In this document: positions 1,127 to 38,034 of the stretch, one piece after another
How positions within the stretch are numbered: the stretch's first letter is position 1
Layout: each line of letters begins with the position of its first letter
DNA from: Rhodothermales bacterium
GTDB lineage: Bacteria; Bacteroidota; Rhodothermia; Rhodothermales; JANQRZ01
Direction: 5' to 3'
NCBI GenBank assembly: GCA_038232935.1
Contig: JBBSMX010000004.1
Span: 2,512-66,511, forward strand
DNA: 64,000 nt
The notes under the pieces: model-generated
What the model was told of the DNA's origin: nothing
What the model saw: only the letters and a program-made list of their open reading frames with translations
Databases searched by the model: none
Made by a program: the position numbers and the translations under genes

Positions 1127-1139
1127 CCCCGACGCAATC

Positions 1140-13810: not shown

Positions 13811-14856
13811 CGGAGGCCGCCTCTCATATCGCCGAGCGCGAACAGCTCGATGAGGAGCCAACGACGCAGGGCGTGACGCCGCCGGAGCGCGGCATCTACG
13901 CCGACCTGTTCCGGACAGGCTATCGGTTCGATTTCTTCCAGGCCGTCCGCCTCCTCGAAGCCTTTTTCCCCGACGCGCCCCCGCCCGGCATGAGCGCCAA
14001 CCCTGCCGCCGAGCGCATCCGCTTCCGCCCGAACCCCGCCATGGTGTTCCCGTCGTCGGACGTGCGCTCTGTGACGTTGGACGAGGACGGGGCCGAGGTG
14101 ATGGTGACGTTCATGGGACTCTACGGGATCGCCTCGCCGCTCCCGATCTACCTCTACGAGGATCTCGCCACCGAGACGGACGACACCCTCCCGCTCCGCC
14201 ACTTCCTCGACATCTTCAACCACCGGCTCTACAGCTATTTCTACCGCGCGTGGAAGAAGTACCGCCCCGGTGGGATCGCGGAGGCAGACCGTGACGACAG
14301 CACGGCCCGCTTCCTCGCCGTAGCTGGGCTCGGGACGCCGGGTGCGCTCACCGACGCCCCCGTGTCCATCGGGCGCCTCGCCGGGTTCGCCGGGCTCCTC
14401 AACCGACGCGTCCGTAACGCAGAAGGATTGTACACGTTGCTGGCCGCGTTTACCGGCGGACTGAAGCTGGAGATCATCGAGAACGTGGTGCGGCGGGTAC
14501 GGGTGACGCAGCGGCCCCGCCTCGGGGGCGGAGGGCCCTCGGCCACGCTCGGCGGATCGGCCCTCCTCGGCGCGACCGTGCTCGACGCGGGCGGCAAGTT
14601 CCGCGTCGTCCTCGGCCCGATGGGACTGAATGATTTCGAATCCTACCTGCCCGGCGGCGAGAAAGCCGAAGCGCTCGGCTACCTCGTCCACCTTTACGCG
14701 CCCGACTTCCTCGACTTCGACGTGCTCCTTCGACTCGAAACCCAACACATGCCTGCCCTCCGCCTCGGCGACCGACAGGCCCGCCTCGGCGAAAATACCT
14801 GGGTGGGTCGCCCGCCCGACGCCGTCCTCACCGAACGCATCGTCACCTACGCCTAA
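13807..14856 (+). CDS. tssG: T6SS baseplate subunit TssG (ImpH/VasB)
   Basis: The ATG at 13807 overlaps the tssF stop (ATGA). YRFDFFQAVRLLE and MVTFMGLYGIASPLPIYLYE are TssG hallmarks. The ORF is open from 13774. Confidence 0.88.
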   Translation: MTEAASHIAEREQLDEEPTTQGVTPPERGIYADLFRTGYRFDFFQAVRLLEAFFPDAPPPGMSANPAAERIRFRPNPAMVFPSSDVRSVTLDEDGAEVMVTFMGLYGIASPLPIYLYEDLATETDDTLPLRHFLDIFNHRLYSYFYRAWKKYRPGGIAEADRDDSTARFLAVAGLGTPGALTDAPVSIGRLAGFAGLLNRRVRNAEGLYTLLAAFTGGLKLEIIENVVRRVRVTQRPRLGGGGPSATLGGSALLGATVLDAGGKFRVVLGPMGLNDFESYLPGGEKAEALGYLVHLYAPDFLDFDVLLRLETQHMPALRLGDRQARLGENTWVGRPPDAVLTERIVTYA

Positions 14857-14867
14857 CTCCCATCGCC

Positions 14868-17708: not shown

Positions 17709-17758
17709 GGCCTACATATTCCTGATCATTCTACTCGCATTACACAGGTCAGCTTACG

Positions 17759-20700: not shown

Positions 20701-21190
20701 ATTTTCTACGAAGGAAGTCGTCTTCGAAGTTGGCGACCGTGAGGGCCTTAAGGACGAGGCTGTGCTGAAGCAATACGACGACGCGAAGAAGGGAAGCAAG
20801 CTGGGTACCCGCATCAAGCAGACGGACAAGGTCGTTGATGTCTTTGGGAAAGACGAAGTCATGCTCAGCACGATGAAAGATGGGAGCGAATCCTACCTCA
20901 AGATCAAAAAGGGAGATGAGATCGAGATCAAGTGCGGGCAGGCCAGCATCGTGCTGAAGAAAAACGGTGACATCACGTTCAAAGGCACGAATATCAAACT
21001 TGACGCGATGCAGAACATCGACGCGAAGGGCATGGACGTGAAGGTGAGCGCACAGAAGGAAGTGAGCATCAAGGGCGAACTGGGAGTCAAGACCGAGGGC
21101 GGCATTACAAATGATGTGAAAGGGGTCATGGTAACGCTCGATGGGACGATGACGGTTGTCAAGGGAAGCCTTGTCAAGGTGGGTTCCTAA
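17759..21190 (+). CDS. vgrG: T6SS spike protein VgrG (TssI) with about 550-aa C-terminal extension
   Basis: N-terminal VgrG core (FTVLAFEGEEKVSQPFEYRLVL, RPIRLAQPYAGKDFGMHFPNRDNVEMVFACLDGDPNRPLGL). The long Lys/Ile/Asn-rich beta-helix-like tail ends ..EIEIKCGQASIVLKKNGDITFKG..VKVGS. GC content is markedly below the flanks. Confidence 0.9.
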   Translation: MPENRFSFEVQANDGDSTAKPARPPTVTSFTVLAFEGEEKVSQPFEYRLVLAYEKTTIDFEKVVNQNATLTMELVEVSAAPTTASNAASSTASTTTKSKKVVKGIVSSFRVTQQLDDGQLECEAVLVPKLWRLGMFYRSRVFQGLTVVEIVDKVLGQDLAPLTQDQLDAADLLGGVPDTNNVPALIKGTDYDFKFTDPVAFVYPKREFVMQYQETDLDFFQRLIEDIGIYYYFDGGKLIFNDSKSLHPDITGNKSVKYQKAMAPAKDRIYRFVSNERVVPKTVSVRDYDYEAFSQHASKNIDTNTTSAGNDYARVGTYTEHGRYAVADRGWVGLKTGKDGDGIPADPVTNAEDNRVSRLKRIALVRAEELEAQRERGDGLSNVSRLQAGHVFTLAGHFLTPVNGDYFITSVRHRYAKVATKVRETIKVKDKEHTVEHTEENLVYENEFTCLPAGIQYRPPRVTPIPRVPGIMTATVKNDDKMAYLDEEGRYRVQFPFDPAPEAGPYKGSEAKNPSRPIRLAQPYAGKDFGMHFPNRDNVEMVFACLDGDPNRPLGLSVVPTPWMHSPVPNTELKLISQNPVAGSAASAATQGGSAWDETTFDELKNVIRTAVGHQIVMDDGDPGSSVGITIQTGKSENAAGRDLHWSSKIEMGGYRHMSPVEQAFGIASHTIGWLKTGLSRDYPGLASGALGAVASAVNTNNYLDDTYGTTTPVGINIATNKNVDITGKDGVNITSPNLFGMFSSSLMGEDSITKRSQYYAEAISKFVVNTVWQDLVSNTAELADGLADNIKDYSKKGYPHPLGQALLNWRSNIIDQRISALFFTLLQRTGVNISSMGELKLTSLQSTAVAAGQGGLTLNSYGGIEQKADLDVKIEAAQGIRIAAGGERYKTDGILGVVGKRAKPFLPVLKAIQFVSSLGERLGRKKEYNEAEYPIELENEQGSIFIHTGGPDEDGKGNILIQTEGTGDIKAFANKEKIHGFSTKEVVFEVGDREGLKDEAVLKQYDDAKKGSKLGTRIKQTDKVVDVFGKDEVMLSTMKDGSESYLKIKKGDEIEIKCGQASIVLKKNGDITFKGTNIKLDAMQNIDAKGMDVKVSAQKEVSIKGELGVKTEGGITNDVKGVMVTLDGTMTVVKGSLVKVGS

Positions 21191-21222
21191 GCTAATAACC
21201 ACTCGATACGGAGAAATACGGT

Positions 21223-21552
21223 ATGCCGAAACCTGCTGCCCAGCTCGCTGACAACGCCGCCCACGGCCCGCCACTCCTCGGTGCAGGCCAGCCGACGGTG
21301 CTCATCGCCAACCGTCCCGCGTGGTGCGTCGGCGACAACCACACGTGCCCGATCCCGAACGCGCCGCCGCCGGTCGGGCCGGGGACGCCGCACGGGCCGG
21401 GCATCACCGCGCCGCCGGGGGCCATCACCGTCCTCATCAACAACAAGCCCGCCGCAGCCCTCGGCGATATGGTGATGGAGCCGGGGGCCGTCATGCCGCC
21501 GATGATCCCGAACCCGATCGTGATGGGCGCGCCGACCGTGCTCGTAGGCTGA
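21223..21552 (+). CDS. PAAR-domain spike-tip protein
   Basis: 109 aa, Gly/Pro-rich. GQPTVLIANRPAWCVGDNHTCP and ITVLINNKPAAALGDMV..GAPTVLVG are PAAR-like blocks. Sits between the two vgrG genes. Confidence 0.85.
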   Translation: MPKPAAQLADNAAHGPPLLGAGQPTVLIANRPAWCVGDNHTCPIPNAPPPVGPGTPHGPGITAPPGAITVLINNKPAAALGDMVMEPGAVMPPMIPNPIVMGAPTVLVG

Positions 21553-21691
21553 GATAATCCGTTCGCTCGGCCTACGGTTATGGCCTGCTTGAACAGGCCT
21601 CTGCCGTCTTCCTCGTAACATAGACACAGATCGCGCACACCGCCGGATTTCGACGTGCCGCGGGTTGCGTTTCAACCGATTCCGAACTGTC

Positions 21692-24229
21692 ATGGCTACG
21701 AGTGCTGCGAACGAATCTCGCTTCTTTTTTAGCAACCCTGATATCCCACAGGAAGAACTCGAGGTCGTCGACTTCGTCGGCCGCGAGGCGATCTCTCAAC
21801 TCTCTCGCTTCGAACTGAACCTGGTGTCGAAGAACCCATCGGTGCCGTTCTCCGACGTCGTTGATCGTCCCGCGATGCTCACGATGCAGGCGGGTACGGA
21901 CCGATCGTACGTCCATGGCGTCGTAGCGGACTTTCAGCAGGGGAGCCCGGTCGGCGACTATTTCAGCTACCGAGCTGTGCTCGTCCCGCGACTGTGGCGA
22001 CTGTCCCTCACCTACCAGAGCCGGGTCTTCCAGCACCTCAGCGTGCCCGAGATCGTGCGGCAGGTGTTGCAGGAGAGCGGCTATGCCTCGGACGACTTCC
22101 GTTTCGGGCTCACGGCCAGCTATCAGCCACGGGAGTACTGCACGCAGTATCAGGAGACCGACCTCGCCTTCCTCTCCCGCCTGCTCGAATACGAAGGCAT
22201 CCAGTTCTTCTTCGAACAGGAGGAGGAGCGGGAGGTCCTCGTGCTGACCGACAACCGGGGCGAGAACCCGCCGATCGGTAGCGAGAACGCGAAGGTGATC
22301 TACCGGCCCTCCAGCGGGATGGTGCCGGCCCACGAGGAAACGGTGCGCGAGTTCGTCTTTCGGGAGCAGGCCGTCACGGGGCGCGTCGTGCTAAAGGATT
22401 ACAACTACCGGACGCCGGATGCGGACATCCGGGCCGAATTCCAGATCAGCGATGAACTGTCGGGCGTCCACTACGAATACGGCTCAAACATCAAGGATGC
22501 CGGAGAGGCCGAGCGGCTTGCGCGCGTCCGCAACGAGGAGATCGAGTGCCGGCGGCGGTTGGCTACGGGCGAGGGGACCAGCATGTATCTCCGGGCCGGT
22601 CACCACTTCACCCTCGACAAGCACTACCGCCTCGACCTCAACCAGTCCTATCTCGTGACCGAGGTCACGCACTACGGATCGCAACGCGGCCTCGTGTCGA
22701 TGCAGGTCGGTGAGGATGCCGCGATGCCCTACCGCAACGTCTTCACATGCGTCCCTGTCTCCGTACAGTTCCGCCCGCTGCGCGTCACGCCCGAGCCGAA
22801 GCTGCCCGGCATCATGACGGCCAAGGTTGAGTCCGGTGGCGGAGACTACGCCTACCTCGACGACGAGGGGCGCTACCGCATCAAGATGCCCTTCGACCTC
22901 GCCGAGACCGAGCAGGCCGGAGCGTCGAAGCCTATCCGGCTCGCGCAGCCCTACGCCGGGGCCGACTACGGGATGCACTTCCCCGTCCACGCCGACGCCG
23001 AGATGGTCTTCGCCTGCGTGGACGGCAACGTGGACCGTCCCCTCGGCCTCTCGACCGTGCCCAATCCCGCGCAGGGATCGCCGGTGAAGGGCGAAAACCA
23101 CACCCGGAACGTGATCCGCACAGCCTCCAAAAACGAGATCTACATGGAGGATGAAGTGGGGAACGAGCGGATCAAGATCGAATCCCCCTACAAGAACAGC
23201 ATCTTACAACTCGGCTCGCCCAACGTCGCGGCCGACGGCGTGTGCCTCACGACCGACGGGGCAACTGCCGTCCACGGAAAGGAAGGCGTATTCATCTCGG
23301 CGTGGGGCAGCATCGACCCCTCGCAGAGCTTGGCAGCGTGGAAGGCCGGCCTCTCGGTTCTGGACGGGAGCATGGGGGTGGTCGCTGCGGCTCTGGGGCT
23401 CCGACCCTTGTCGCTGCTGTCGGCGACGAACTTCGCTGGTTCGTTTGCAAGCCTTGTGACGGGCGTTCTGGGGCAGGGTGCTTACATCACGGCCCCGCAC
23501 GGCGTCGGTCTCTATTCGAGCACGAGCGTTTCCGCCGTGGCAGGCGCGGGAGGGATCGGCCTGTACAGCGCTGCCGGCGCGGACATCTGCTCGGCAGCAG
23601 GAATTTATCTGGGGACCGTGGCAGGCGGCGTTCATATCGGGGCCGCGCAAGGCGGCGTGAAGGTCGCGGCCGGCATAGGCAACATCGAAATCGAAACCAA
23701 GACAGACGACATCGTCCTGACCACGAAGCTGGGCAACATCAAGCTGGACGCGTTCGACAAAATGAGTCTTGCTGCTGGAACGGGTAGGGTCCGGATCGAG
23801 AGTGAGTCTGACAAGCTGGAGTGCGAGGCCCGGAAGGATATCGAGATCAAGTCGAGAGAGGGTAACGTGCGAGTGGAAGCTGATCAGGCTGTAAACATCA
23901 AAAGCTCCCAGGAGCGAGTGGTGATCGAAGCGGAAAAGGAAATCGTTCTCAAATGTGGCGACACCACGCTTAAGATCAGCCCGGACGGGATCGACCTCGA
24001 TACGAAGAACTACGTCGAAGTGAAGTCGGGCGGAAGTGTGAACGCCTATGCGGGCGGAAGCCGGGGGCCGGCTCTGCTCATGGGCGCGAGCGGTTCCTTC
24101 AGCATCGCAAACAACATGGCTGCTTATTCCTTGGACACGAGCGGTAAAGCCGCGATCAGTGCAGTTCAAGTCGATATCAATGCGAAAGCCATGGCCCAAT
24201 TAAAGGCCGCGCTCACTAAGGTCGGCTAA
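21692..24229 (+). CDS. vgrG: Second T6SS spike protein VgrG (TssI)
   Basis: LEVVDFVGREAISQLSRFELNLVS and KPIRLAQPYAGADYGMHFPVHADAEMVFACVDGNVDRPLGL. The C-terminal beta-helix ends ..EIVLKCGDTTLKISPDGIDL..LTKVG. The ORF is open from a TTG at 21665; the ATG at 21692 is preferred. Confidence 0.9.
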   Translation: MATSAANESRFFFSNPDIPQEELEVVDFVGREAISQLSRFELNLVSKNPSVPFSDVVDRPAMLTMQAGTDRSYVHGVVADFQQGSPVGDYFSYRAVLVPRLWRLSLTYQSRVFQHLSVPEIVRQVLQESGYASDDFRFGLTASYQPREYCTQYQETDLAFLSRLLEYEGIQFFFEQEEEREVLVLTDNRGENPPIGSENAKVIYRPSSGMVPAHEETVREFVFREQAVTGRVVLKDYNYRTPDADIRAEFQISDELSGVHYEYGSNIKDAGEAERLARVRNEEIECRRRLATGEGTSMYLRAGHHFTLDKHYRLDLNQSYLVTEVTHYGSQRGLVSMQVGEDAAMPYRNVFTCVPVSVQFRPLRVTPEPKLPGIMTAKVESGGGDYAYLDDEGRYRIKMPFDLAETEQAGASKPIRLAQPYAGADYGMHFPVHADAEMVFACVDGNVDRPLGLSTVPNPAQGSPVKGENHTRNVIRTASKNEIYMEDEVGNERIKIESPYKNSILQLGSPNVAADGVCLTTDGATAVHGKEGVFISAWGSIDPSQSLAAWKAGLSVLDGSMGVVAAALGLRPLSLLSATNFAGSFASLVTGVLGQGAYITAPHGVGLYSSTSVSAVAGAGGIGLYSAAGADICSAAGIYLGTVAGGVHIGAAQGGVKVAAGIGNIEIETKTDDIVLTTKLGNIKLDAFDKMSLAAGTGRVRIESESDKLECEARKDIEIKSREGNVRVEADQAVNIKSSQERVVIEAEKEIVLKCGDTTLKISPDGIDLDTKNYVEVKSGGSVNAYAGGSRGPALLMGASGSFSIANNMAAYSLDTSGKAAISAVQVDINAKAMAQLKAALTKVG

Positions 24230-29030: not shown

Positions 29031-30857
29031 ATGAGCGATCCGCACAAAAACGTAGGCATCCGCATCACCTCAGACCCGGACACGACAGCCATTCCGCAGC
29101 CCGGCACGGGGGCCGTGAAACGCGAGGCGCGGATGCCGCTCCGCTTGCTGCTCGTCGCTGATCTCACGCCGCAACGGCGGCCGAACTGGCGGGGCGATTC
29201 GCTCCTGCGGCGGGTGGACGCGCACGGTTTCGCCGGGCTGATGGAGGAGTGGCAGCCCGCGCTCCGGCTCGACGTGCCGAACCGGCTCAGTCCGCAACCT
29301 CCGTCGCTAGAGATCGGACTTCGGTTTCGGTCCTTAAAGGACTTCGCGCCGTCCGCGATTGCTCGGCAGGTGCCGGCGCTCGCGCGACTGCTCGCGATCC
29401 GCACCGAGGTCTACGGCGTCCGCACAAAGGGGACCGACCGCGAGACCTTCCGCGACCGGCTCGGGGAGGCCGGGGTGGATGCGGCGTCGGCGGACGGGCT
29501 CTACGCCCAGCTCACCATCGAGCCGCCCAAGCCGAAGCCTGCGCCGGCCCCGCAGAGGGACGACGCGCTCGACCGGCTGATGGGGATGGTGGATTCCGGC
29601 GACGGCAGCGCCGACGAAACGAGCGGCAGCGGGGACGCGCTCGCCGAGGCGGTCTCCGACGGCGCGCGCCGCATCGCGACGTCGGCGGCCGATAAGATTC
29701 TGGAGGACTTCGACCGGAAGCTCGGCGGGCAGGTTCGGGCGATCATCGAGCACCCGGACGTGCGGCGGCTCGAAGCGGCGTGGCGCGGGCTGAAGCTGCT
29801 CGTGGACCGGCTCCCGTTCCGCGAGGGCGTCCACCTCGACGTGCTGGCCGCGCCCCGCGAGAGCCTGAGCGAGGCGCTCTATTTCCAGGTCCTCGTGCCG
29901 GAGCACGGTGCCGGAGAAGGCGACGGCCGCGACCCGCTCTCCGCCGTAATCCTCGGCTTCGCCTTCGATAACAGCCAGGCCGATATCGAACTGCTCGACG
30001 ACATCGCCGGGACGGGTGCGAGCCTGCAAGCCCCGTTCATCGCGTCCGCCGGGCCGGAGTTCTTCGGGTTCGATGCGCCGGAGAAGATCGGGCCGCTGCC
30101 GCTCGTGCCGCAGCTCGTCGCGGGGCCGGAGTACATCCACTGGAACAAGCTCCGCGAGAAGGACGAGGCAAGGTTCGCCGCGCTCGCGTTCCCGCCGTTC
30201 CTGCTCCGCGCACCCTACGGCCCGGACAACCCGTCGAAGGATTTTCCGCTCGAAGAAGCGGGGTTCCTGTGGGGCGGCGGTGCCCTCGCCGTCGCCGTCG
30301 CGATGGCCGACTCGTTCGCGGAGACGGGCTGGCCGACACACCTCGCCGGTCGGCGGATGGACGACCTGCCGATCCACGAGACCGAGCGCGGCCGAACGCC
30401 GCTCGCCGTGCTGATCCCCGAAGCCAAAGCCGCCGAACTCGCCGACGCCGGGTTCGTCGTGCTCACCGGGGAGGCGAACCGCGACCGGATACAGGTCGCC
30501 CGCGCCCCGAACATCGCGCGCGCACAAACCTTCGACGACCCGGAGAAGACGGCGCATGCGGCAGCGCACGCGACGCTCGGGTGCGGCCTCTTCGCGGCGC
30601 GGGCCGCCCACCGTATGCTGACGCTGCCTACCGAAATCGACCCCGCCGCCTCGTTGGAGGCCAAGCAGGCCGCGGTGATCGCTTCGCTGCGTGCGTTCCT
30701 CGGGGGGGACGTAGCGGCGGACGCCGTGACAGCGGAGCTGGTCCCCGAGGCCGAGATCGACGGGCACGACTTGCTGGCCGTTCGTTTGCAGCCACCGCGC
30801 CACGTGCTGGACAGCCCCGTTCACCTCGCCATCGGCCTTCCGGTCCCGCGAGCATGA
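29031..30857 (+). CDS. Single-chain TssB-TssC (VipA-VipB) fusion-like sheath paralogue
   Basis: The N-terminal ~150 aa parallel TssB at 8697 (PLRLLLVADL; LKDFAPSAIARQVPALARLLAIR). The C-terminal ~400 aa parallel TssC at 9266 (IIEHPDVRRLEAAWRGLKLLVDR; DPLSAVILGFAFDNS; ALAFPPFLLRAPYGPDNPSKDFPLEE). A low-complexity linker joins the halves. Confidence 0.7.
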   Translation: MSDPHKNVGIRITSDPDTTAIPQPGTGAVKREARMPLRLLLVADLTPQRRPNWRGDSLLRRVDAHGFAGLMEEWQPALRLDVPNRLSPQPPSLEIGLRFRSLKDFAPSAIARQVPALARLLAIRTEVYGVRTKGTDRETFRDRLGEAGVDAASADGLYAQLTIEPPKPKPAPAPQRDDALDRLMGMVDSGDGSADETSGSGDALAEAVSDGARRIATSAADKILEDFDRKLGGQVRAIIEHPDVRRLEAAWRGLKLLVDRLPFREGVHLDVLAAPRESLSEALYFQVLVPEHGAGEGDGRDPLSAVILGFAFDNSQADIELLDDIAGTGASLQAPFIASAGPEFFGFDAPEKIGPLPLVPQLVAGPEYIHWNKLREKDEARFAALAFPPFLLRAPYGPDNPSKDFPLEEAGFLWGGGALAVAVAMADSFAETGWPTHLAGRRMDDLPIHETERGRTPLAVLIPEAKAAELADAGFVVLTGEANRDRIQVARAPNIARAQTFDDPEKTAHAAAHATLGCGLFAARAAHRMLTLPTEIDPAASLEAKQAAVIASLRAFLGGDVAADAVTAELVPEAEIDGHDLLAVRLQPPRHVLDSPVHLAIGLPVPRA

Positions 30858-30903: not shown

Positions 30904-32712
30904 GTGGAGGCGCATTCCGTCTCGTGCCGCCCCATCATTCGTCCCTCCAGGGCCACTTTTTTGACCCCCCAACATCCTCCCTCTTCTCAGCCGACGGAGG
31001 CGCGGCCCACCATTCGGGTTCGCGTCGAAGGGAGTAGCGTACCCGGATTGGAACGGACATTTACGGAGCCGTTCACGATTGGCCGCGGGCTACAGGCAAC
31101 GCTGCACGTGGACTCCGGCCGCGTCAGCCGCATTCACGCTGAAGTCGTCTTCGAGGAGGGCTGGGTGCTCCGCGACGCGGGCAGCACAAACGGGGTGTAT
31201 TGTGACGGCGAGCGCATCGAATCGGTGCCGCTCGTGGGGGAGGTGGTGGTCCGGCTCGGGCGCGATGGCCCCGCCGTGCATTTCCAGGTAGCGGAAGCGG
31301 AGGGCAACTACACCCCGAGCGCCGATACGATTCCCAGCGATGCCCTGACGGGGAGCGAGCTCTCGCCGCCGGTGGATTTGCCGGGGAAAACGTCAGCGGC
31401 GAATTCCCGTGGCGATGACACCTCCGCGCGCGAGAAGCCATTCCCCTCGGAGGGCGGGACGATGGGGATACGGGGTGAGCCCCCATCACCGTCGGGCGCC
31501 GAAGGCAAGGGGAAGACGTCTGAGCGGTCGGTGAGCCAGGTCATCCGGCGCTACTTCGGCGACGATGCGGGGGAGCCTGCGGGCGAGCGGACGATGATGA
31601 TCCGCCGGGCGTATCAGGAGGTCCACACGAAACAGAAGCGGAAGTACAGCGGCATCATCGGAGGCGTAGCAGCGCTGCTAATCGCGGCGCTCGGCTTCGC
31701 CATCTGGCAACAGATGCGGGTGGAGAAGCTGACCAATACGGCCGAAGCGCTCTTTTACGAGATGAGAGAGCAGGATCTCGCAACGGCTGAGCTCCGCATG
31801 CTGGCTGAAGAGGGTGGCAATGCCGCGCTCGCCGCACAACTGGACGAACTGGAAGCCCGTCGTCGCCGTCAGGCCGAACTGTACCAGGGGTACGTTGAAG
31901 AACTGGGCATCTATCGCTCGCTCAACCCGCAGGAGAAGGAGATATACCGGGTGGCCCGCATCTTCAACGAGAGCGAGTTCACGATGCCGGCGGGTTTCGT
32001 CCGGGAGGTGAAGGGGGTGATCAGCGAATGGCAGCGCTCCGGCCGGCTCAAAAACGCCCTCCAACTGGCCGAGCGAAACGGCTACACCCCCGCCATCGTC
32101 CGGACGATGCAGAAGTATGGGCTCCCGCCCGAGTTCTTCTACCTCGCCCTGCAGGAGAGCAACTTCGACACGTGCATCAGTGGACCGGAGACACGCTGGG
32201 GGATCGCCAAAGGGATGTGGCAATTCATCCCGCCGACGGCCCAAGCCTACGGCCTCTCCACCGGCCCCCGCGTCGACCTCCGCGTGTGCGACCCGATGGA
32301 CGAGCGCCACGACTTCGCCCTCGCCACCGACGCCGCTGCCCGCTACCTCCTCTACATCTACACCCATCTGGCGCAGGCTTCCGGCCTGCTGGTCATGGCC
32401 TCGTACAACTGGGGCGAGCACCGCGTGTCCTCCAAGCTCGACGAGCTTCCCGAGACCCCCCTCGATCTCGTCCGGCAGGATTTCGAAGACGTGCCGCAGA
32501 ACCCGCAACAGCGTAGCTACTGGCGGTTCCTCAACGAGTACCGAGATCGGATGCCCGACGAGACGAAGAACTACGTCCTGCATATCTTCTCCGCCGCCGT
32601 CATCGGGCAAAACCCTCGGCTGTTCGGGTTCGACTTCGACAATCCGCTGGAGCCGTACCTCCAGGAACCGGCGTCTGACCCCTCCGCCGTGGCCCTTTCC
32701 ACCTCCCCTTGA
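30904..32712 (+). CDS. FHA domain - TM helix - soluble lytic transglycosylase (SLT) fusion protein (TagH/Fha-like)
   Basis: FHA block FTIGRGLQATLHVDSGRVSRIHAEVVFEEGWVLRDAGSTNGVYCDGERI. TM helix YSGIIGGVAALLIAALGFAIWQQ. SLT block FYLALQESNFD..GIAKGMWQFIPPTAQAYGL. Start uncertain: GTG 30904, or TTG 30961. Confidence 0.8.
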   Translation: MEAHSVSCRPIIRPSRATFLTPQHPPSSQPTEARPTIRVRVEGSSVPGLERTFTEPFTIGRGLQATLHVDSGRVSRIHAEVVFEEGWVLRDAGSTNGVYCDGERIESVPLVGEVVVRLGRDGPAVHFQVAEAEGNYTPSADTIPSDALTGSELSPPVDLPGKTSAANSRGDDTSAREKPFPSEGGTMGIRGEPPSPSGAEGKGKTSERSVSQVIRRYFGDDAGEPAGERTMMIRRAYQEVHTKQKRKYSGIIGGVAALLIAALGFAIWQQMRVEKLTNTAEALFYEMREQDLATAELRMLAEEGGNAALAAQLDELEARRRRQAELYQGYVEELGIYRSLNPQEKEIYRVARIFNESEFTMPAGFVREVKGVISEWQRSGRLKNALQLAERNGYTPAIVRTMQKYGLPPEFFYLALQESNFDTCISGPETRWGIAKGMWQFIPPTAQAYGLSTGPRVDLRVCDPMDERHDFALATDAAARYLLYIYTHLAQASGLLVMASYNWGEHRVSSKLDELPETPLDLVRQDFEDVPQNPQQRSYWRFLNEYRDRMPDETKNYVLHIFSAAVIGQNPRLFGFDFDNPLEPYLQEPASDPSAVALSTSP

Positions 32713-32723
32713 TCTGCTCGCTC

Positions 32724-33485
32724 ATGCTGTGGAAGCGCTCTGCCCGCCCGCTCACGATTCGCTTCGGCGCCAAGTCCGATGTCGGCCAAGTCCGCTCGGA
32801 GAATCAGGACGACTACGGGCGCTTCCCGGAGGTCCAGTCCACCCGCAATGGGGACCAGCTATTCGTCGTAGCCGACGGGATGGGCGGGCACGAGGACGGC
32901 GGCCGGGCTAGCCGGGTCGCCGTCGAAGCCGTGGGGGGCACGTACTTCACGCATCCGGAGGTACCCGTGGAGGACCGGCTGCGCCGGGCGGTCAGCGAGG
33001 CGAACGCGCGGGTCTATCAGTTCGCGCAGGCCGGTACCATCCCGAAGAAGATGGGCACCACCTGCACCGCCCTCGCCCTGGTGGGGGAAGACGCCTACCT
33101 CGCGCACGTCGGTGACAGCAGGGCCTATCGGATCAATCGGGACGGGATCTCGCAGCTCTCGCGGGATCACACGCTCGTGGAGGCGCTGATGCGCGAGGGG
33201 GTGCTGACCGAGGACGAGGCCGCGCGCCATCCGCAGCGGCACGCGCTCGTCCGAGCGATCGGGATCGAACCGGAGGTGCAGGTGGACGTGCGGCGGCTCA
33301 AGACCCCGCAGTCCGGCGATGCGTTTCTGCTGTGCTCCGACGGCCTCGCCCGCGTGACCAACGTGGAGATCCGCGACATCGTTCGTTCTGAAACACCGCA
33401 GCAGGCGGCCGAAACCCTCGTCCAACTGGCGAACGACCGCGGCGGGCACGATAATGTGACGGTTCTAGTAGTAAAGGTTGAATAG
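32724..33485 (+). CDS. PP2C-family Ser/Thr phosphatase (PppA-like)
   Basis: FGAKSDVGQVRSENQDDYG, FVVADGMGGHEDG, LCSDGL, ANDRGGHDNVTVLVVKV. The ORF is open from a TTG at 32709 that overlaps the upstream stop. Confidence 0.9.
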   Translation: MLWKRSARPLTIRFGAKSDVGQVRSENQDDYGRFPEVQSTRNGDQLFVVADGMGGHEDGGRASRVAVEAVGGTYFTHPEVPVEDRLRRAVSEANARVYQFAQAGTIPKKMGTTCTALALVGEDAYLAHVGDSRAYRINRDGISQLSRDHTLVEALMREGVLTEDEAARHPQRHALVRAIGIEPEVQVDVRRLKTPQSGDAFLLCSDGLARVTNVEIRDIVRSETPQQAAETLVQLANDRGGHDNVTVLVVKVE

Positions 33486-33550: not shown

Positions 33551-35539
33551 ATGCCTGACACCTACATCGGCCAAGAGATCGACGGCTTCCGCATCCTGGA
33601 GGAACTCGGGCGCGGCGGCATGGGCGTGGTGTACAAGGCGGAGGACGTGGCCCTCGCGAGGCCGGTCGCGCTCAAGATGATCGCCCGCGAACTCTCCCGC
33701 GACGAGTCGTTCGTGCGGCGCTTCCGGTCCGAGGCACGCGCCCTCGCCCGCATCAACAGCTCGTATATCACGAGCATCTACGCGCTACGCCGCACCGAGG
33801 ACGGCATCTTCATCGTGATGGAGTTCATCGGGGGCGGCACGCTCGGCGACCTGATGGAACGAGGGCCGGTGAAGTGGGCGGCGATCCGGCCGGCGGTCCT
33901 CGAAATGATCTCGGCACTCGAGCACGCCCACGGCGTCGGCGTCATCCATCGCGACATCAAGCCGGGCAACATCCTTCTCACCGAGGCCGGCCACGTCAAG
34001 GTGACTGACTTCGGCCTCGCCAAGCTCCACACGGCCGACCAGGGGGTGACCGTCACACAAGGGATCGCCGGCACGCTCTACTACATGTCGCCGGAGCAGG
34101 TCAAGGGCGAGCGCAACCTCGACGGCCGCAGCGACCTCTACGCCCTCGGCATCACGATCTACGAAGCGCTCAGCGGCCGGCTGCCCTTTGAGCGAGGGGG
34201 CAGCGAGTTCTCTACGATGCGGAAGATCGTTGAGGACGAGTACCCGCCGCTCGGGCAGTTCGTGCCTGATCTCCCGCCCGGCGTTGAGGCGGCCGTCATG
34301 AAGGCGCTCGCCAAGAATCCGGACGACCGCTACGCGAACGCCGCCGCGATGTGTGCCGCCTTCGATGCGATCCCCGGCGCCGCGGCCCACGCTCCGGTCG
34401 TGGCGAACGGCGCTCCGCGGCGCGAGGCCGAGACGGTGATCGCGGGCGAGGCGTACCAGCAAGCTCCAGTGAAACCGGTGCGGGAGAAGCGTGCGCTGCC
34501 GAAGCAAGGGCTGGTGATCGGCGGCGGCGTGCTCGCGGCGGTGGTGCTCGCCGTCCTCGCGTTCCTCCTCTGGCCCGGTGCTACGACGTTGAGCGTAGCC
34601 ACCAATCCGCCTGGAGCCGTCGTCACCCTCGACGGCCAACAGCTCGGTCGGACGCCGCTCGAGTCCGTCGCGGTAAAGGGCGACGGCGGAAGGCTGCGCG
34701 TCGAACGGACGGGCTACGCCCTCGTCGACACGCTGATCTCCTTCGCCGAGGGCGGGCCGCTGAACCTCCGGTTTCCGCTCGTCGCACTCGCTTCGCCATC
34801 GGGCGAGGGCTCGGTCGCGCTGCTGAACGTTACGTCTAATCCCTCGGGCGCTACCGTTCTCATCAACGGCGAGCGTGTGGGGCAGACGCCGTACACCCAC
34901 CGCGATAGCACCGCCCGCCCGCTCGCCGTACGCATCGAGCGCCGGGGCTATCAGCCGTGGAGCCAGACGGGCGTCGCACTCGATCCTGGCACGCCGACAG
35001 AGATCCGGGCCGACCTCGAACGAGCGGATGCGCCGACGACCCCGGCCGACACACGGCCCGTCGACACGCGGCCGACTGACACGGGGCCGCCGGACACCGG
35101 ACCGGCCCAGCAGGGCACTCTCACCGTCAGCGCGAATCCCGGCGGGACCGTGACCGTTGCGGGCCAGAGCCGGACGGATAGTGGGACGTTCAGCGTGCCC
35201 GCCGGCTCTACACGCATTCGTTGCCAGAACCCACTATACGGCACCTTCGAAGGGACAGTCAACGTGCGCGGCGGGCAGACGGCGACGGCGACATGCTATT
35301 TCACAGCCACCGTCAACGTCAACGTCACCACCGACGAGGGACCCACGTGGGGGTCCGTCTGGGTCGACGGACGCAACGCGGGGGAGACGCCGGCCAGCCT
35401 GACGCTCGGCCCCGGCACCCACACCGTCGAGGTCCGACGAGCAGGCTATCAGACACTCGATCCGTCTCGAACCATCACCATCGCGGCCGGACTGCAGCCG
35501 AAGACCGAGCGCCTGGTATTTCAGATGAGGAAGGAGTGA
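33551..35539 (+). CDS. Ser/Thr protein kinase (PpkA-like) with TM helix and PEGA-type extracytoplasmic repeats
   Basis: Hanks kinase motifs GRGGMGVVYKA, HRDIKPGNILL, DFGLAK. TM helix GLVIGGGVLAAVVLAVLAFLLW. Three PEGA-like modules (VATNPPGAVVTLDGQQLGRTP, VTSNPSGATVLINGERVGQTP, VWVDGRNAGETP). Confidence 0.9.
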   Translation: MPDTYIGQEIDGFRILEELGRGGMGVVYKAEDVALARPVALKMIARELSRDESFVRRFRSEARALARINSSYITSIYALRRTEDGIFIVMEFIGGGTLGDLMERGPVKWAAIRPAVLEMISALEHAHGVGVIHRDIKPGNILLTEAGHVKVTDFGLAKLHTADQGVTVTQGIAGTLYYMSPEQVKGERNLDGRSDLYALGITIYEALSGRLPFERGGSEFSTMRKIVEDEYPPLGQFVPDLPPGVEAAVMKALAKNPDDRYANAAAMCAAFDAIPGAAAHAPVVANGAPRREAETVIAGEAYQQAPVKPVREKRALPKQGLVIGGGVLAAVVLAVLAFLLWPGATTLSVATNPPGAVVTLDGQQLGRTPLESVAVKGDGGRLRVERTGYALVDTLISFAEGGPLNLRFPLVALASPSGEGSVALLNVTSNPSGATVLINGERVGQTPYTHRDSTARPLAVRIERRGYQPWSQTGVALDPGTPTEIRADLERADAPTTPADTRPVDTRPTDTGPPDTGPAQQGTLTVSANPGGTVTVAGQSRTDSGTFSVPAGSTRIRCQNPLYGTFEGTVNVRGGQTATATCYFTATVNVNVTTDEGPTWGSVWVDGRNAGETPASLTLGPGTHTVEVRRAGYQTLDPSRTITIAAGLQPKTERLVFQMRKE

Positions 35540-35621
35540 CGCGAGTCCTCCTTCGTACTTACATTGGGGGGCTTCCCTCCCTATATCTACTAAGAACAGA
35601 AAGCTAAAGAGGTGACCAGTG

Positions 35622-36665
35622 ATGCCCCCGATTCTATCCCGTTTGTTGTGTGCGGCGCTCTGCGTCGTTGCCGTTTCGTTCGCCCCCGTGCAGGCGCAGG
35701 ACGTGGCGCTACAGAAGGCTATCGAGGCCTATAGCGTCGCGGAGTACGACCAGGCCATCACCGGCTTCGCCGCCCTCGTCGAAGACGCCTCGACGGACAA
35801 GGCCGTGAAGAAGGAGGCGCTCCAGTATCTCGGCCGCGCCTACGTCGCCAAGCGGGCCTACGACGACGTGCGCTCCACCATCGACCGGCTCCTCGACCTC
35901 GAGCCGCCGCTCGTCGAGCTCGACCCGGAGGACGAGCCGCCTGCGCTCATGAAGCTCTACTACGAAGTCCGCCGCGACTACGCGGGCTACGAGGTCCAAC
36001 GGCCCGAGCCCGGTATGAAGACGCTGGCCGTGATGGACTTCACGAACACATCCGTGGACGAGAAGGAGCGCTTCGACTCGATGCAGCAGGGGTTCGCCTC
36101 GATGATGATCAACTACCTCGAAGGCGCGACTGGGCTGAAGGTGGTCGAGCGCGAGCGCATCCAGTGGCTCCTCGACGAGCTGGAGCTTCAGCGCGACGGG
36201 GGCCTCGTAGACCAAGCCTCGGCCGTGCGTACGGGCAAGCTCCTCGGCGCGAACGCCGTCCTCTTCGGTGCCTTCACCGTGCATGGGAACCAGATGTGGA
36301 TCTCGGCCCGCCTCGTGAAAGTGGAGACCGGCGAGATCCTGCTGGCCGAGCAGATCTTCGGGAAGAAAGACGAATTCTTCGAGCTCATCGAGAAGCTCTC
36401 CGATCAGGTCGCCGATGCGATCGGTGTGGAGCTAGCCAAAAACAACAACGACAACAACGGTGGGAGTGCGAGTGCCGGGGGAGATGGCGAATCCCACTCG
36501 CTCGACGCCGTGCTGTCGTATTCGCAGGGGCTCGGGCTCATCGAGCAGGAGAAGTATCAGGAGGCCTACGACAAGTTCATCGAGGCGCTCGAGTACGACC
36601 CGAACTACACCCGCGCTCGGCGCAAGGCCGACAGCTTGAGGCCGCAGCTGGCGGCGGCTGGCTAA
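35622..36665 (+). CDS. Secreted TPR + CsgG-like domain protein
   Basis: Signal peptide MPPILSRLLCAALCVVAVSFAPVQAQ. TPR-like N- and C-terminal regions. Central block LAVMDFTNTSVDE..LKVVERERIQWLLDELELQRDG..GKLLGANAVLFGAFT resembles CsgG-family lipoprotein domains. Confidence 0.6.
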   Translation: MPPILSRLLCAALCVVAVSFAPVQAQDVALQKAIEAYSVAEYDQAITGFAALVEDASTDKAVKKEALQYLGRAYVAKRAYDDVRSTIDRLLDLEPPLVELDPEDEPPALMKLYYEVRRDYAGYEVQRPEPGMKTLAVMDFTNTSVDEKERFDSMQQGFASMMINYLEGATGLKVVERERIQWLLDELELQRDGGLVDQASAVRTGKLLGANAVLFGAFTVHGNQMWISARLVKVETGEILLAEQIFGKKDEFFELIEKLSDQVADAIGVELAKNNNDNNGGSASAGGDGESHSLDAVLSYSQGLGLIEQEKYQEAYDKFIEALEYDPNYTRARRKADSLRPQLAAAG

Positions 36666-36732
36666 CCTGCGCAAACCGCTGTCGTACTCTCTGGCTTGGG
36701 ACCATGTCCCCCTCTCCGTCACCCCTCCCTTT

Positions 36733-38034
36733 ATGTTTCGCGGACTCGCTCTTCTCTCCCTGCTGACGCTCGGGCTGCTGGCCGCCTGTGCGCCAACGAA
36801 CGAGATCGGCACCGTAGCTCCGGAGAAGCTGGGCCGCGCCATCGACCGCGCCCGTGCCGACCTCGTCCGAAGGCCGAACGAGGCGAGCGCGCTCCGCGAC
36901 CTCGGTGCCCTCCTCTCGCAGGACGAGCGGTTCGACGAGGCGGCCCCGTACCTCCGGCAGGCCTACGTCGAAGATCCATCCGGTGCGAAGACGCTCTACT
37001 ACCTCGGCCTGCTCAACGAGAAGGAAGGCAGCCCCGACGAGGCCTTAAAGTTCTACGGACGGTTCGCGGATGTCTCGGTGCGCTCCCCCTTCCGGCCTCT
37101 GTTGAAGGGGCGCTACGAGTCGCTCGTTCGGGAGCGGATCCAGCAGGAAATGGGGGCGCTCGCGGCGCGGGAGGACACGCTCGCGACGGCGGAGGACATG
37201 CCTCCGACGGTCGCTGTGTTTCCATTCGCGTACCGCGGGAGCGACCCCCGCTTCGCTCCGCTCGGACGAGGGCTGGGGGAGATGGTGCAGGCCGACCTCG
37301 CCGGTATCGGCGGGCTTCAGGTGGTGGAACGGCTCCGTCTCCAGTCGCTGCTCGACGAGCTCTCGCTGTCGCAATCCGAGGCGTTCGATCCGTCCACCAC
37401 GCCGCGCGTGGGGCGTCTGCTCCGCGCAGGCCGCGCTGTAGGCGGCTCTTTCGACGTGGACAACCGCGACCTCCGCATCGACGCCGCGCTGTGGAACTGG
37501 GAGGACCAGCCGTCGCCGAACTTACAGACCCGCTCGGATAACCTCGATAAGCTCTTCCAACTGAAGCGAGAGGTCGTGTTAGGGCTTGTAGAGCAGTTGG
37601 GCGTCCCCCTCACCGCCGAGGAGCGAGCCATGCTCGACGAGGTGCCGACGCGCAATCTGCAGGCGTTCATCATCTACTCGCGAGGGCTAGAGCAGGAGGA
37701 CGCCGGCAACTTCCCTGATGCCGCCGGCCTTTACCGCGAAGCGGCGAAGCTGGACCCGACGTTCGAGCGCGCCGCCGCCGGGGCCGAGCGGGCAGCGGAG
37801 GTCGACCATGCCGGGGGATCGCTCGAGCACGGCCTCGCCGCCGCTCTTGCGCTCGAAGACCTCGGGGGGATTAACCTCGTCGCCAACCGGCTCAGCAAGC
37901 TCAACGATAGCATTGGGGCGACTTTTCTTCCAGGGGCGGGGGGCGACCGTGACAGCCCTGCGGGGGAAGCCGCAGCCGCGGACGGCATCTTCGACTCCCT
38001 TCCTGATCCCCCCGACCCGCCGGGTGGCAACTGA
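36733..38034 (+). CDS. Lipoprotein with TPR + CsgG-like domain (paralogue of the preceding gene)
   Basis: Lipobox LLAAC. TPR-like region. VAVFPFAYRGSDPRF..LQVVERLRLQSLLDELSLSQS..GRLLRAGRAVGGSF parallels the preceding protein. Confidence 0.6.
   Translation: MFRGLALLSLLTLGLLAACAPTNEIGTVAPEKLGRAIDRARADLVRRPNEASALRDLGALLSQDERFDEAAPYLRQAYVEDPSGAKTLYYLGLLNEKEGSPDEALKFYGRFADVSVRSPFRPLLKGRYESLVRERIQQEMGALAAREDTLATAEDMPPTVAVFPFAYRGSDPRFAPLGRGLGEMVQADLAGIGGLQVVERLRLQSLLDELSLSQSEAFDPSTTPRVGRLLRAGRAVGGSFDVDNRDLRIDAALWNWEDQPSPNLQTRSDNLDKLFQLKREVVLGLVEQLGVPLTAEERAMLDEVPTRNLQAFIIYSRGLEQEDAGNFPDAAGLYREAAKLDPTFERAAAGAERAAEVDHAGGSLEHGLAAALALEDLGGINLVANRLSKLNDSIGATFLPGAGGDRDSPAGEAAAADGIFDSLPDPPDPPGGN

What the first reader, a model, noticed from the sequence alone, without database searches (positions are those of the whole stretch)
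30904..32712. FHA domain fused through a TM helix to a lytic transglycosylase, next to PP2C and Ser/Thr kinase
Seen in sequence:
- An N-terminal FHA domain (GRVSRIHAEV..RDAGSTNGVY).
- One TM helix (IIGGVAALLIAALGFAIW) and a coiled-coil-like stretch.
- A C-terminal SLT-type domain with the catalytic ES motif (LALQESNFD) and the GMWQFIPPTA block.
Established knowledge: in the T6SS threonine-phosphorylation pathway, a cytoplasmic FHA protein reads the pThr marks written by PpkA. Separately, T6SS membrane complexes need local peptidoglycan cleavage, supplied by a recruited housekeeping lytic transglycosylase or a dedicated hydrolase in the studied systems.
Here both functions sit in one bitopic polypeptide. 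This suggests that kinase signalling could directly position or license cell-wall opening at the assembly site (inference).
Basis: partly seen in the sequence, partly recalled or inferred. Interest (0 to 1): 0.65.

Follow-up and report, generated by a model that had tools for sequence, protein, structure and literature searches.

The report
Phospho-reader fused to a wall-cutting enzyme
A membrane protein in a bacterial "type VI" weapon gene cluster joins a cytoplasmic phospho-threonine reader to a periplasmic cell-wall-cutting enzyme; the family is widespread and undescribed, and it suggests kinase signals decide where the wall is opened.

Summary
ORF 30904-32712 encodes an FHA domain (Pfam E 2.5e-12), one N-in/C-out TM helix, a periplasmic helical hairpin and an MltD-type SLT lytic transglycosylase (E 4.6e-12). 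The pThr-binding residues and the catalytic Glu-Ser are intact. It sits in a complete T6SS-i cluster, directly before a PP2C phosphatase and a receptor Ser/Thr kinase.

It is not a one-off. I found 688 clusters (50% identity) and at least 590 species across Rhodothermales (including Salinibacter ruber), Gemmatimonadota, Acidobacteriota and Desulfobacterota. No curated family model or paper describes it.

- The protein does not replace the cytoplasmic FHA protein. A canonical TagH and TssJ lie 3 kb left of the window, so this is a second pThr reader.
- Only 21 of 42 large loci carry T6SS genes within 10 kb, and 12 have neither T6SS nor kinase nearby.
- The same TM-plus-transglycosylase cassette also occurs fused to two FHA domains, or to a Ser/Thr kinase domain itself.
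- An invariant juxtamembrane Thr-x-x-(I/V/L) motif is a candidate phosphosite.

Best reading (0.45): a kinase-controlled, T6SS-associated transglycosylase. Function is untested. Novelty: new variant of a known kind. Interest: 0.6.

The parts
30904..32712 (+). Whole FHA-TM-SLT gene. 602 aa from GTG 30904; an alternative start at TTG 30961 gives 583 aa.
   Evidence: Homologue N-termini support a start upstream of 'IRVRVEG'.
31012..31290 (+). Cytoplasmic FHA domain (aa 37-129 of 602). The pThr-binding residues are R61, S75, R76, H78, S94 and N96.
   Evidence: Pfam E 2.5e-12. AF2 pLDDT above 90. Foldseek match to 6ccd, TM-score 0.86. These residues are invariant or near-invariant in 81 sequences from several phyla.
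31306..31527 (+). Disordered, poorly conserved cytoplasmic linker (aa 135-208).
   Evidence: pLDDT below 50. Length and sequence vary across the alignment.
31528..31647 (+). Conserved cytoplasmic juxtamembrane segment. It holds an invariant Tyr and the motif G-[ED]-[HR]-T-x-[MFL]-[IVL]-R-x-A-[YF]. T230 (codon 31591-31593) is a candidate phospho-acceptor and FHA ligand.
   Evidence: Thr in 79 of 81 sequences; I/V/L at +3 in 81 of 81. The motif is absent from the kinase-fused relatives. The phosphosite role is inference.
31648..31707 (+). Single transmembrane helix (aa 249-268), oriented N-in/C-out.
   Evidence: Hydropathy and the positive-inside rule hold in 83 of 84 members.
31708..31905 (+).
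   Evidence: AF2 helices 2-36 and 39-66 of the periplasmic model, block pLDDT 74-91.
31927..32661 (+). Periplasmic MltD-type (family 1) lytic transglycosylase domain with a family-specific conserved N-terminal extension. The catalytic E418 is at codon 32155-32157, followed by S419. The GMWQ and SYNWG motifs are present.
   Evidence: Pfam SLT E 4.6e-12. Profile match to PDB 8rhe, E 3.8e-16. NCBIfam MltD PRK10783, E 3.4e-9, below its cut-off. E, S, Q, Y and N are invariant in 81 of 81 sequences.
32709..33485 (+). PP2C Ser/Thr phosphatase (PppA/TagG-like). As listed, the ORF overlaps the stop of the FHA-SLT gene; the first ATG is at 32724.
   Evidence: PP2C_2 E 3.9e-19. Stp1/IreP family, 241 bits against a cut-off of 230.
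33551..35539 (+). Receptor Ser/Thr kinase (PpkA/TagE-like in position). Kinase domain aa 14-266, TM helix near aa 315-351, PEGA-repeat ectodomain.
   Evidence: Pkinase E 9.5e-48 and PEGA E 1.5e-38. TM helix from hydropathy.
29031..30857 (+). Fused TssB-TssC-like paralogue (608 aa) immediately upstream. It forms a conserved gene pair with FHA-TM-SLT.
   Evidence: VipA E 1.2e-21 plus VipB E 2.4e-50. 24% identity to TssB and 29% to TssC. The pair is conserved in loci listed.
35619..38034 (+). Two signal-peptide proteins with CsgG/LpoB-like and TPR domains. They are conserved downstream of the kinase and are candidate periplasmic sensor partners.
   Evidence: Conserved in L001-L003, L008, L009, L056, L082 and L083.
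1..24229 (+). T6SS-i core on the same strand: TssK (cut by the window edge), TssL (241 aa, no peptidoglycan-binding domain), TssM, TagF, TssA, TssB, TssC, Hcp, TssE, TssF, TssG, ClpV and two VgrG genes.
   Evidence: TagH and TssJ lie just left of the window on L086.

Best explanation
The gene encodes a bitopic inner-membrane protein.

Shown:
- A cytoplasmic FHA domain competent to bind pThr.
- A flexible linker and a conserved juxtamembrane helix.
- A single TM helix.
- A periplasmic helical hairpin, then an MltD-type lytic transglycosylase with an intact catalytic Glu.

Inferred: it is an accessory component of this T6SS's threonine-phosphorylation pathway and acts beside the canonical soluble TagH, not instead of it. 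The adjacent receptor kinase (PEGA ectodomain) and PP2C write and erase pThr marks. The FHA domain docks on such a mark. Candidate sites are the kinase, TssL, TagH, the neighbouring TssB-TssC-like protein, or the protein's own invariant T230-x-x-I motif, in cis or in trans. Docking would concentrate or activate the tethered transglycosylase at the site where a T6SS membrane complex is being built. The peptidoglycan would then be cut locally. In studied systems that job falls to recruited MltE or to the endopeptidase TagX.
For: - Domains, topology and residue conservation.
- Gene position: co-directional, between T6SS structural or effector genes and PP2C plus the kinase. No terminator-like site lies between these genes.
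- The same block occurs in Salinibacter ruber and in many Rhodothermales MAGs.
- T6SS core genes lie within 10 kb in 21 of 42 large loci. These come from Rhodothermales, Gemmatimonadota/Longimicrobiales, Desulfobacterota and Acidobacteriota, and they interleave with the orphan loci on the family tree.
- A Ser/Thr kinase lies within 0.1-6.5 kb in 22 of 42 loci.
- The cassette is also fused to two FHA domains or to a kinase domain, with the catalytic residues kept.
- The T-x-x-(I/V/L) motif matches the usual FHA ligand pattern (the ligand pattern is from established FHA knowledge).
- TssL here has no peptidoglycan-binding domain.
- The T6SS literature knows only recruited MltE and TagX for wall opening (PMC13584744).
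Against: - Nothing was tested for enzymatic activity, phosphorylation or T6SS dependence.
- Half of the large loci show no T6SS gene within 10 kb, and 12 of 42 show neither T6SS nor a kinase. Their neighbours are unrelated housekeeping genes.
- A canonical TagH already exists in this cluster, so an FHA reader for assembly is not missing.
- Kinase-ectodomain logic in the kinase-fused relatives would make the transglycosylase domain an input, not an output.
- Structure search did not give a significant transglycosylase match. The best hit was Slt70 at E 0.06.
- Whether genomes with orphan copies have a T6SS at all could not be checked.
Confidence: 0.45

Rival explanations
1. General cell-wall enzyme under Ser/Thr-kinase control. 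On this reading the family is a housekeeping or stress-responsive transglycosylase used for growth, division or peptidoglycan turnover. FHA binding to phosphoproteins governs its activity or placement. T6SS adjacency in some lineages is secondary.
For: - 21 of 42 large loci lack T6SS genes nearby.
- Orphan copies sit among unrelated metabolic genes.
- In two Ignavibacteria loci the upstream gene is the peptidoglycan-recycling muramidase NamZ.
- Kinase-fused and double-FHA variants exist, and no T6SS gene is seen around the one kinase-fused example inspected.
- The taxa concerned (Acidobacteriota, Desulfobacterota) are rich in eukaryotic-type Ser/Thr kinases (general knowledge).
Against: - A 50% rate of T6SS genes within 10 kb is far above what a random gene would show. 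It recurs in four phyla and is spread across the tree.
- In Rhodothermales the gene lies deep inside the T6SS block and is paired with a TssB-TssC-like gene.
- Orphan location does not exclude a T6SS encoded elsewhere in the genome.
Confidence: 0.25
2. Outside-in sensor or site-selector. The periplasmic transglycosylase domain engages peptidoglycan, for example at damaged or newly opened sites, and clusters there. The cytoplasmic FHA domain then recruits phosphorylated T6SS or pathway components to that spot. This would be analogous to PASTA ectodomains on PknB-type kinases, or to TagQRST-PpkA envelope sensing.
For: - In relatives, the cassette takes the ectodomain position of a receptor kinase (P0364, P0365, P0377).
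- FHA is a reader with no enzymatic output, so it suits recruitment.
- The cluster already has TagH to promote assembly.
Against: - The catalytic Glu-Ser and all family-1 motifs are invariant in 81 of 81 sequences and in the kinase fusions. This argues that catalysis, not only binding, is under selection.
- The neighbouring kinase has its own PEGA ectodomain and lipoprotein partners that could do the sensing.
Confidence: 0.2
3. Peptidoglycan anchor. The transglycosylase domain mainly binds the wall to root the membrane complex. That would compensate for a TssL that lacks an OmpA-like domain, the role played by TagL, TagN or 'evolved' TssL elsewhere.
For: - TssL is 241 aa and ends just after its TM helix.
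- No OmpA/PG_binding domain was found in the annotated T6SS genes of the window.
- The review PMC13584744 describes this kind of compensation by accessory genes.
Against: - Invariant catalytic residues.
- Known anchors use OmpA/MotB-type domains, not SLT.
- Not every ORF in the window was screened for peptidoglycan-binding domains.
Confidence: 0.1

Closest known systems
TagH / Fha1 (T6SS-associated FHA protein; TIGR03354; Pfam FHA + T6SS_FHA_C)
   Same: N-terminal FHA domain with the pThr-binding residues, followed by a long disordered linker. Encoded in a T6SS cluster with PpkA-like, PppA-like and TagF genes.
   Different: No T6SS_FHA_C domain and no TIGR03354 hit. It is membrane-anchored and carries a periplasmic enzyme. 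A separate canonical TagH is present in the same cluster. The two FHA domains share only 31% identity.
MltD, family 1D lytic transglycosylase (PRK10783; PDB 8rhe)
   Same: Best sequence match for the catalytic domain. It has the E-S catalytic motif, a GLMQ-like motif, an AYNxG-like motif and the C-terminal YW...P.ET.DYV segment.
   Different: MltD is an outer-membrane lipoprotein with LysM repeats. This protein has no lipobox and no LysM. Its anchor is an inner-membrane TM helix, and it has a cytoplasmic signalling domain plus a conserved helical hairpin and N-terminal extension.
MltE recruited by TssM (EAEC Sci-1), and TagX L,D-endopeptidase (Acinetobacter)
   Same: The proposed job is the same: local peptidoglycan opening for T6SS membrane-complex assembly (PMC13584744).
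   Different: MltE is a housekeeping enzyme encoded elsewhere and recruited by protein contact. TagX is an endopeptidase. Neither carries a phospho-reader or is known to be tied to the kinase pathway.
YscD/PrgH/EscD-type T3SS inner-membrane ring proteins; FhaB/FipA (Rv0019c); GltG
   Same: Bitopic layout with a cytoplasmic FHA-fold domain, one TM helix and a periplasmic part. There are weak profile hits to PF16697, FhaB and GltG.
   Different: Those periplasmic parts are ring-building or other non-enzymatic domains. YscD-type FHA domains generally lack the pThr-binding residues (general knowledge); here they are invariant.
PknB/Stk1-type receptor kinases with PASTA ectodomains
   Same: Conceptually, a peptidoglycan-directed ectodomain wired through one TM helix to Ser/Thr-phospho signalling. 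The kinase-TM-SLT relatives of this family have exactly that layout.
   Different: PASTA domains bind muropeptides and are not enzymes. Here the ectodomain keeps a complete transglycosylase active site.

Membership tests
TagH/Fha1 (T6SS FHA protein) | FHA domain with conserved pThr-binding Arg/Ser/His/Asn | tested here: met
   Pfam FHA E 2.5e-12. R61, S75, R76, H78, S94 and N96 are conserved in at least 79 of 81 sequences.
TagH/Fha1 (T6SS FHA protein) | C-terminal T6SS_FHA_C domain (PF20232) / match to TIGR03354 | tested here: not met
   No PF20232 hit at E<=0.01. No TIGR03354 hit at E<=0.001. By contrast, the upstream protein on L086 hits TIGR03354 at E 2e-24, though that score (87 bits) is below the model's 120-bit cut-off, and carries a weak PF20232 hit.
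TagH/Fha1 (T6SS FHA protein) | Soluble cytoplasmic protein | tested here: not met
   One TM helix with N-in/C-out topology.
TagH/Fha1 (T6SS FHA protein) | Phosphorylated by, or bound to, PpkA and required for Hcp secretion | not testable with these tools
   Needs phosphoproteomics, kinase assays and genetics.
Family 1 lytic transglycosylases (SLT, PF01464), MltD-like | SLT profile match above the gathering score | tested here: met
   46 bits against a cut-off of 21.3. Profile match to PDB 8rhe, E 3.8e-16.
Family 1 lytic transglycosylases (SLT, PF01464), MltD-like | Catalytic Glu in an E-S motif, plus GLMQ-like and AYNxG-like motifs | tested here: met
   QE418S419, GMWQ and SYNWG are present and invariant in 81 of 81 sequences.
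Family 1 lytic transglycosylases (SLT, PF01464), MltD-like | Lysozyme-like transglycosylase fold confirmed by structure comparison | tested here: inconclusive
Family 1 lytic transglycosylases (SLT, PF01464), MltD-like | MltD-specific lipoprotein anchor and LysM repeats; equivalog score for PRK10783 | tested here: not met
   No LysM hit. PRK10783 scores 35.5 bits against a cut-off of 508. The anchor is a TM helix.
Family 1 lytic transglycosylases (SLT, PF01464), MltD-like | Produces 1,6-anhydroMurNAc products from peptidoglycan | not testable with these tools
   Needs an enzyme assay.
Secretion-system-dedicated ('specialised') peptidoglycan hydrolases | Encoded within the secretion-system gene cluster | tested here: met
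   True in the window. True in 21 of 42 large related loci, so not universal for the family.
Secretion-system-dedicated ('specialised') peptidoglycan hydrolases | Required for, or stimulates, assembly of the machine and contacts its membrane complex | not testable with these tools
   Needs genetics and interaction assays.
YscD/PrgH-type bitopic FHA ring proteins | Periplasmic ring-building motifs after the TM helix | tested here: not met
   The periplasmic part is a helical hairpin plus an SLT domain. PF16697 scores 22.3 bits against a cut-off of 33.2.

The most novel reading that the evidence does not exclude
A general, undescribed transmembrane module in diderm bacteria. A catalytically intact MltD-type lytic transglycosylase is hard-wired through one TM helix to cytoplasmic Ser/Thr-phospho signalling domains: FHA, two FHA domains, or the kinase itself. 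Eukaryotic-type kinase signalling would thereby directly gate peptidoglycan cleavage across the membrane. In T6SS clusters this module would be the missing dedicated wall-opener, recruited by pThr marks (possibly its own invariant T-x-x-I site read by TagH or by itself) to the firing site. The adjacent TssB-TssC-like fusion might couple it to the sheath or baseplate.
Probability: 0.3. Interest if true: 0.8.

Novelty: new variant of a known kind. Interest (0 to 1): 0.6.

Why it matters
Two questions about type VI secretion remain open. How does the megadalton membrane complex get through the cell wall in systems with no known hydrolase? And what does the threonine-phosphorylation pathway physically do to trigger assembly?

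A wall-cutting enzyme that carries its own pThr reader, encoded between the T6SS genes and the kinase and phosphatase, links the two questions. It can be tested with a few point mutants (E418Q, R61A/S75A, T230A).

More broadly, the FHA-, double-FHA- and kinase-fused versions of one transglycosylase cassette cover about 700 protein clusters in at least four phyla. This suggests a general route by which Ser/Thr kinases control peptidoglycan cleavage in Gram-negative-type bacteria. That control is so far known mainly for synthesis and from Gram-positives.

If the family turns out to be housekeeping, it is still an unannotated class of regulated transglycosylase. Databases currently label it only 'FHA domain-containing', 'SLT domain-containing' or 'MltD'.

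Tried and rejected
1. 'It is the cluster's only FHA protein and replaces TagH.' An FHA profile found no other FHA ORF in the 64 kb. But the window starts inside tssK, and a 99.95%-identical contig shows TagH and TssJ just upstream. Rejected.
2. 'The family is strictly T6SS-linked.' Rejected. tblastn found T6SS genes within 10 kb in only 21 of 42 large loci. No T6SS family appeared among the 25 listed (of 111 matched) for 65 neighbour ORFs from ten orphan loci. Direct Pfam scans of ten immediate neighbours found none either.
3. A separate T6SS-linked subclade. Rejected: linked and orphan members interleave on a neighbour-joining tree.
5. Terminator and promoter scan of 26000-41600. Uninformative: fewer terminator-like sites than in shuffles, and sigma-70 rules may not apply to this lineage.
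6. Literature. No paper combines 'FHA domain' with 'SLT domain'. A 2026 review of T6SS accessory genes and a Bacteroidota membrane-complex paper do not mention such a protein. There is nothing on Rhodothermales T6SS.
7. A later start codon that splits off the FHA domain. Rejected from homologue N-termini and the AF2 strand at 'TIRVRV'.
8. Genome-level co-occurrence with T6SS.
Full report
**Observation.** The ORF at 30904-32712 (+) exists and translates to 602 aa from GTG. Pfam finds an FHA domain (aa 58-119, E 2.5e-12) and an SLT lytic-transglycosylase domain (aa 401-513, E 4.6e-12). Both are well above their gathering scores. There is one TM-grade hydrophobic segment (aa 249-268, Kyte-Doolittle 2.26) and no second one. 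Across 84 family members, K+R residues average 5.2 on the N side of the helix and 2.1 on the C side, with the N side richer in 83 of 84. The FHA domain is therefore cytoplasmic and the SLT domain periplasmic.

AlphaFold2 with an 84-sequence alignment gives mean pLDDT 81.3. In 583-aa numbering (start TTG 30961) the model shows:
- an FHA sandwich at 18-110;
- a disordered linker at 116-189;
- a short helix at 191-199;
- one long helix at 209-285 that contains the TM segment;
- a returning helix at 288-315;
- a helical C-terminal domain at the SLT position.

The FHA part superposes on M. tuberculosis Rv1747 FHA-1 with TM-score 0.86 and rmsd 1.8 A. Homologues carry the first FHA strand ('IRVRVEG'). 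The start is therefore GTG 30904 or TTG 30961, not a downstream codon. The 554-aa gene call in the public record clips that strand.

**Context in the window.** All genes listed here lie on the + strand:
- T6SS core: TssK (cut by the window edge), TssL (DotU only, 241 aa), TssM, TagF, TssA, TssB, TssC, Hcp, TssE, TssF, TssG, ClpV and two VgrG genes.
- Effector region: an RHS protein, a pentapeptide-repeat protein and DUF2169.
- A 608-aa fused TssB-TssC-like paralogue, then the FHA-TM-SLT gene.
- A PP2C phosphatase whose ORF overlaps the stop of the FHA-TM-SLT gene.
- A Ser/Thr kinase with a TM helix and a PEGA-repeat ectodomain.
- Two signal-peptide CsgG/LpoB-like TPR proteins, and a FlgD_ig/T9SS-tail protein.

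This is a complete T6SS-i cluster with a threonine-phosphorylation module. The T9SS sorting domains and 68% GC point to Rhodothermales, and the closest database relatives carry that label.

**A correction to the premise.** An FHA profile finds no other FHA ORF in the 64 kb. However, the window begins inside tssK. A contig 99.95% identical to window 1-2006 extends 3 kb to the left. It carries a canonical TagH and TssJ directly upstream of TssK. That TagH has FHA plus T6SS_FHA_C, and TIGR03354 is its best hit at E 2e-24, though below that model's cut-off. A related locus (L019) also has a canonical TagH beside the FHA-SLT gene. The protein under study is therefore a second pThr reader, not a fused replacement for TagH. 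Its FHA domain is only 31% identical to TagH's.

**The family.**
- Size and naming: the top 120 database relatives (43-100% identity) nearly all carry both domains; one lists SLT alone. Their names are generic. A profile search of 1.84 billion representatives gives 688 clusters at E<=1e-30.
- Spread: at least 590 GTDB species encode it, in Rhodothermales (Salinibacter, Roseithermus, Rubrivirga), Gemmatimonadota, Acidobacteriota, Desulfobacterota, Ignavibacteria, Aminicenantes and others.
- Conservation: in 81 sequences from these phyla the FHA pThr-binding residues (R61, S75, R76, H78, S94, N96) are conserved in at least 79 of 81. The transglycosylase residues (E418, S419, the Q of GMWQ, the Y and N of SYNWG) are invariant.
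- Catalytic domain type: it is closest to MltD (PDB 8rhe E 3.8e-16; PRK10783 far below its cut-off). It has no LysM repeats and no lipobox.
- Annotation and literature: no NCBIfam model covers the architecture and no paper in the library describes it.

**New features.**
1. A conserved juxtamembrane motif, G-[ED]-[HR]-T-x-[MFL]-[IVL]-R-x-A-[YF], lies about 19 residues before the TM helix. Thr is present in 79 of 81 sequences, and I/V/L at +3 in 81 of 81. T-x-x-(I/L/V) is the usual FHA ligand pattern (established FHA knowledge). T230 is therefore a candidate phosphosite read in cis, in trans, or by TagH. This is inference.
2. Relatives exist in which the same TM, hairpin and transglycosylase cassette is fused to two FHA domains (P0257, P0326), or to a Ser/Thr kinase domain in place of FHA (P0364, P0365, P0377). 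All keep the catalytic residues. The kinase fusions lack the Thr motif. The cassette is thus recurrently wired to pSer/Thr signalling.
3. A TssB-TssC-like fusion gene immediately precedes the FHA-SLT gene in many Rhodothermales. It lies within a few kb of it in some Desulfobacterota.

**How tight is the T6SS link?** There are 42 related loci of at least 15 kb. Of these, 21 have T6SS core genes within 10 kb, 22 have a Ser/Thr kinase within 0.1-6.5 kb, 13 have both and 12 have neither. T6SS-linked loci occur in Rhodothermales, Gemmatimonadota/Longimicrobiales, Desulfobacterota and Acidobacteriota. They interleave with orphan loci on a neighbour-joining tree. Salinibacter ruber has the same block as the window. 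Orphan loci have unrelated neighbours: an RND pump, prolyl oligopeptidase, NamZ, a DNA methylase, DUF1501 and DUF885. Whether those genomes encode a T6SS elsewhere could not be tested.

**Mechanism.** Best reading, confidence 0.45: this is a kinase-controlled transglycosylase that serves the T6SS. The receptor kinase and PP2C set pThr marks. The FHA domain docks on one of them and concentrates or activates the tethered enzyme where a membrane complex is assembling, so the wall is opened locally. MltE or TagX do that job in studied systems (PMC13584744).
- Shown: architecture, topology, intact sites, gene neighbourhood, conservation.
- Inferred: the partner, the direction of signalling, and T6SS dependence.

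Rivals:
- A general Ser/Thr-kinase-regulated wall enzyme whose T6SS adjacency is secondary (0.25).
- An outside-in sensor or site-selector, suggested by the kinase-fused relatives (0.2).
- A peptidoglycan anchor compensating for a TssL without a wall-binding domain (0.1). The invariant catalytic residues argue against this one.

**Comparison with known systems.** The protein works like a TagH-type reader joined to a specialised transglycosylase, but it fails membership of each known family:
- TagH: it has no T6SS_FHA_C domain, no TIGR03354 hit, and it is not soluble.
- MltD proper: it has no LysM repeats and no lipoprotein anchor.
- YscD/PrgH type: it has no ring-building motifs.

**Verdict.** This is a real, widespread, undescribed architecture, best classed as a new variant of known kinds. 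It gives a directly testable hypothesis linking T6SS phospho-signalling to wall opening. Interest 0.6.

Noticed in passing
window 29031-30857 (+): A 608-aa single polypeptide combines a TssB/VipA domain (aa 26-160) with the N-terminal part of TssC/VipB (aa 222-487). It exists in addition to the canonical TssB and TssC genes. Identity is 24% to TssB and 29% to TssC residues 79-426, and there is no VipB_2 hit. The family has about 100 clusters, mostly in Rhodothermales, including Salinibacter ruber, Rubrivirga and Roseithermus. The gene sits next to the FHA-TM-SLT gene, even in Roseithermus, where no Pfam-annotated T6SS core gene lies within 10 kb. I found no description of such a sheath-fusion paralogue.
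   Followed up: partly
L086 671-2629 (2967 bp left of window position 1): A canonical TagH (459 aa, FHA + T6SS_FHA_C) and TssJ (119 aa) sit directly upstream of the truncated tssK that opens the window. The cluster therefore has two FHA proteins.
   Followed up: yes
window 33551-40843 (+): The kinase has a PEGA-repeat ectodomain. It is followed by two CsgG/LpoB-like TPR proteins with signal peptides, a FlgD_ig/T9SS-tail protein and an unannotated 362-aa secreted protein. This block is conserved in most Rhodothermales loci that extend far enough. It may be a sensor set analogous to TagQRST. The first lipoprotein has a sub-threshold hit to the TssQ family (E 6.8e-5).
   Followed up: partly
P0364, P0365, P0377 (relatives; L085 for P0365): These proteins have a Ser/Thr kinase domain, one TM helix and the same MltD-type transglycosylase cassette with intact catalytic residues. 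In other words, they are receptor kinases whose ectodomain is a wall-cutting enzyme.
   Followed up: partly
L022 7946-9364 (-), L028 8428-9903 (-): In Gemmatimonadota loci, a second FHA protein near the FHA-SLT gene is an FHA domain fused to a trypsin-like peptidase. Other neighbouring FHA proteins include FHA-GAF-SpoIIE (L014) and cyclase-FHA (L043).
   Followed up: no
window 17759-22000: GC content drops to 0.56-0.58, against about 0.68 elsewhere. The dip covers the 3' part of the first, unusually long VgrG (1143 aa, with Phage_GPD only at aa 39-416) and the following spacer. This may be a horizontally acquired C-terminal effector extension.
   Followed up: no
window 30904-31050; protein P0001: The public gene call for this protein (554 aa) starts at an internal TTG and removes the first beta-strand of the FHA domain. 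Homologues and the AF2 model support a start at 30904 or 30961.
   Followed up: yes
window 49858-61568: A run of proteins carries T9SS C-terminal sorting domains. It includes a 1196-aa S8 subtilase with a beta-helix region, a BNR-repeat protein, and two paralogous proteins of about 535 aa. They appear unrelated to the T6SS block.
   Followed up: no
L042 8467-9846 (+), L073 8596-9822 (+): In Ignavibacteria orphan locus L042, the gene immediately upstream of the FHA-SLT homologue is the peptidoglycan-recycling exo-muramidase NamZ. A second NamZ among the scanned neighbours is probably the equivalent ORF in L073, but that was not checked individually. This hints at a wall-turnover role in that lineage.
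   Followed up: no
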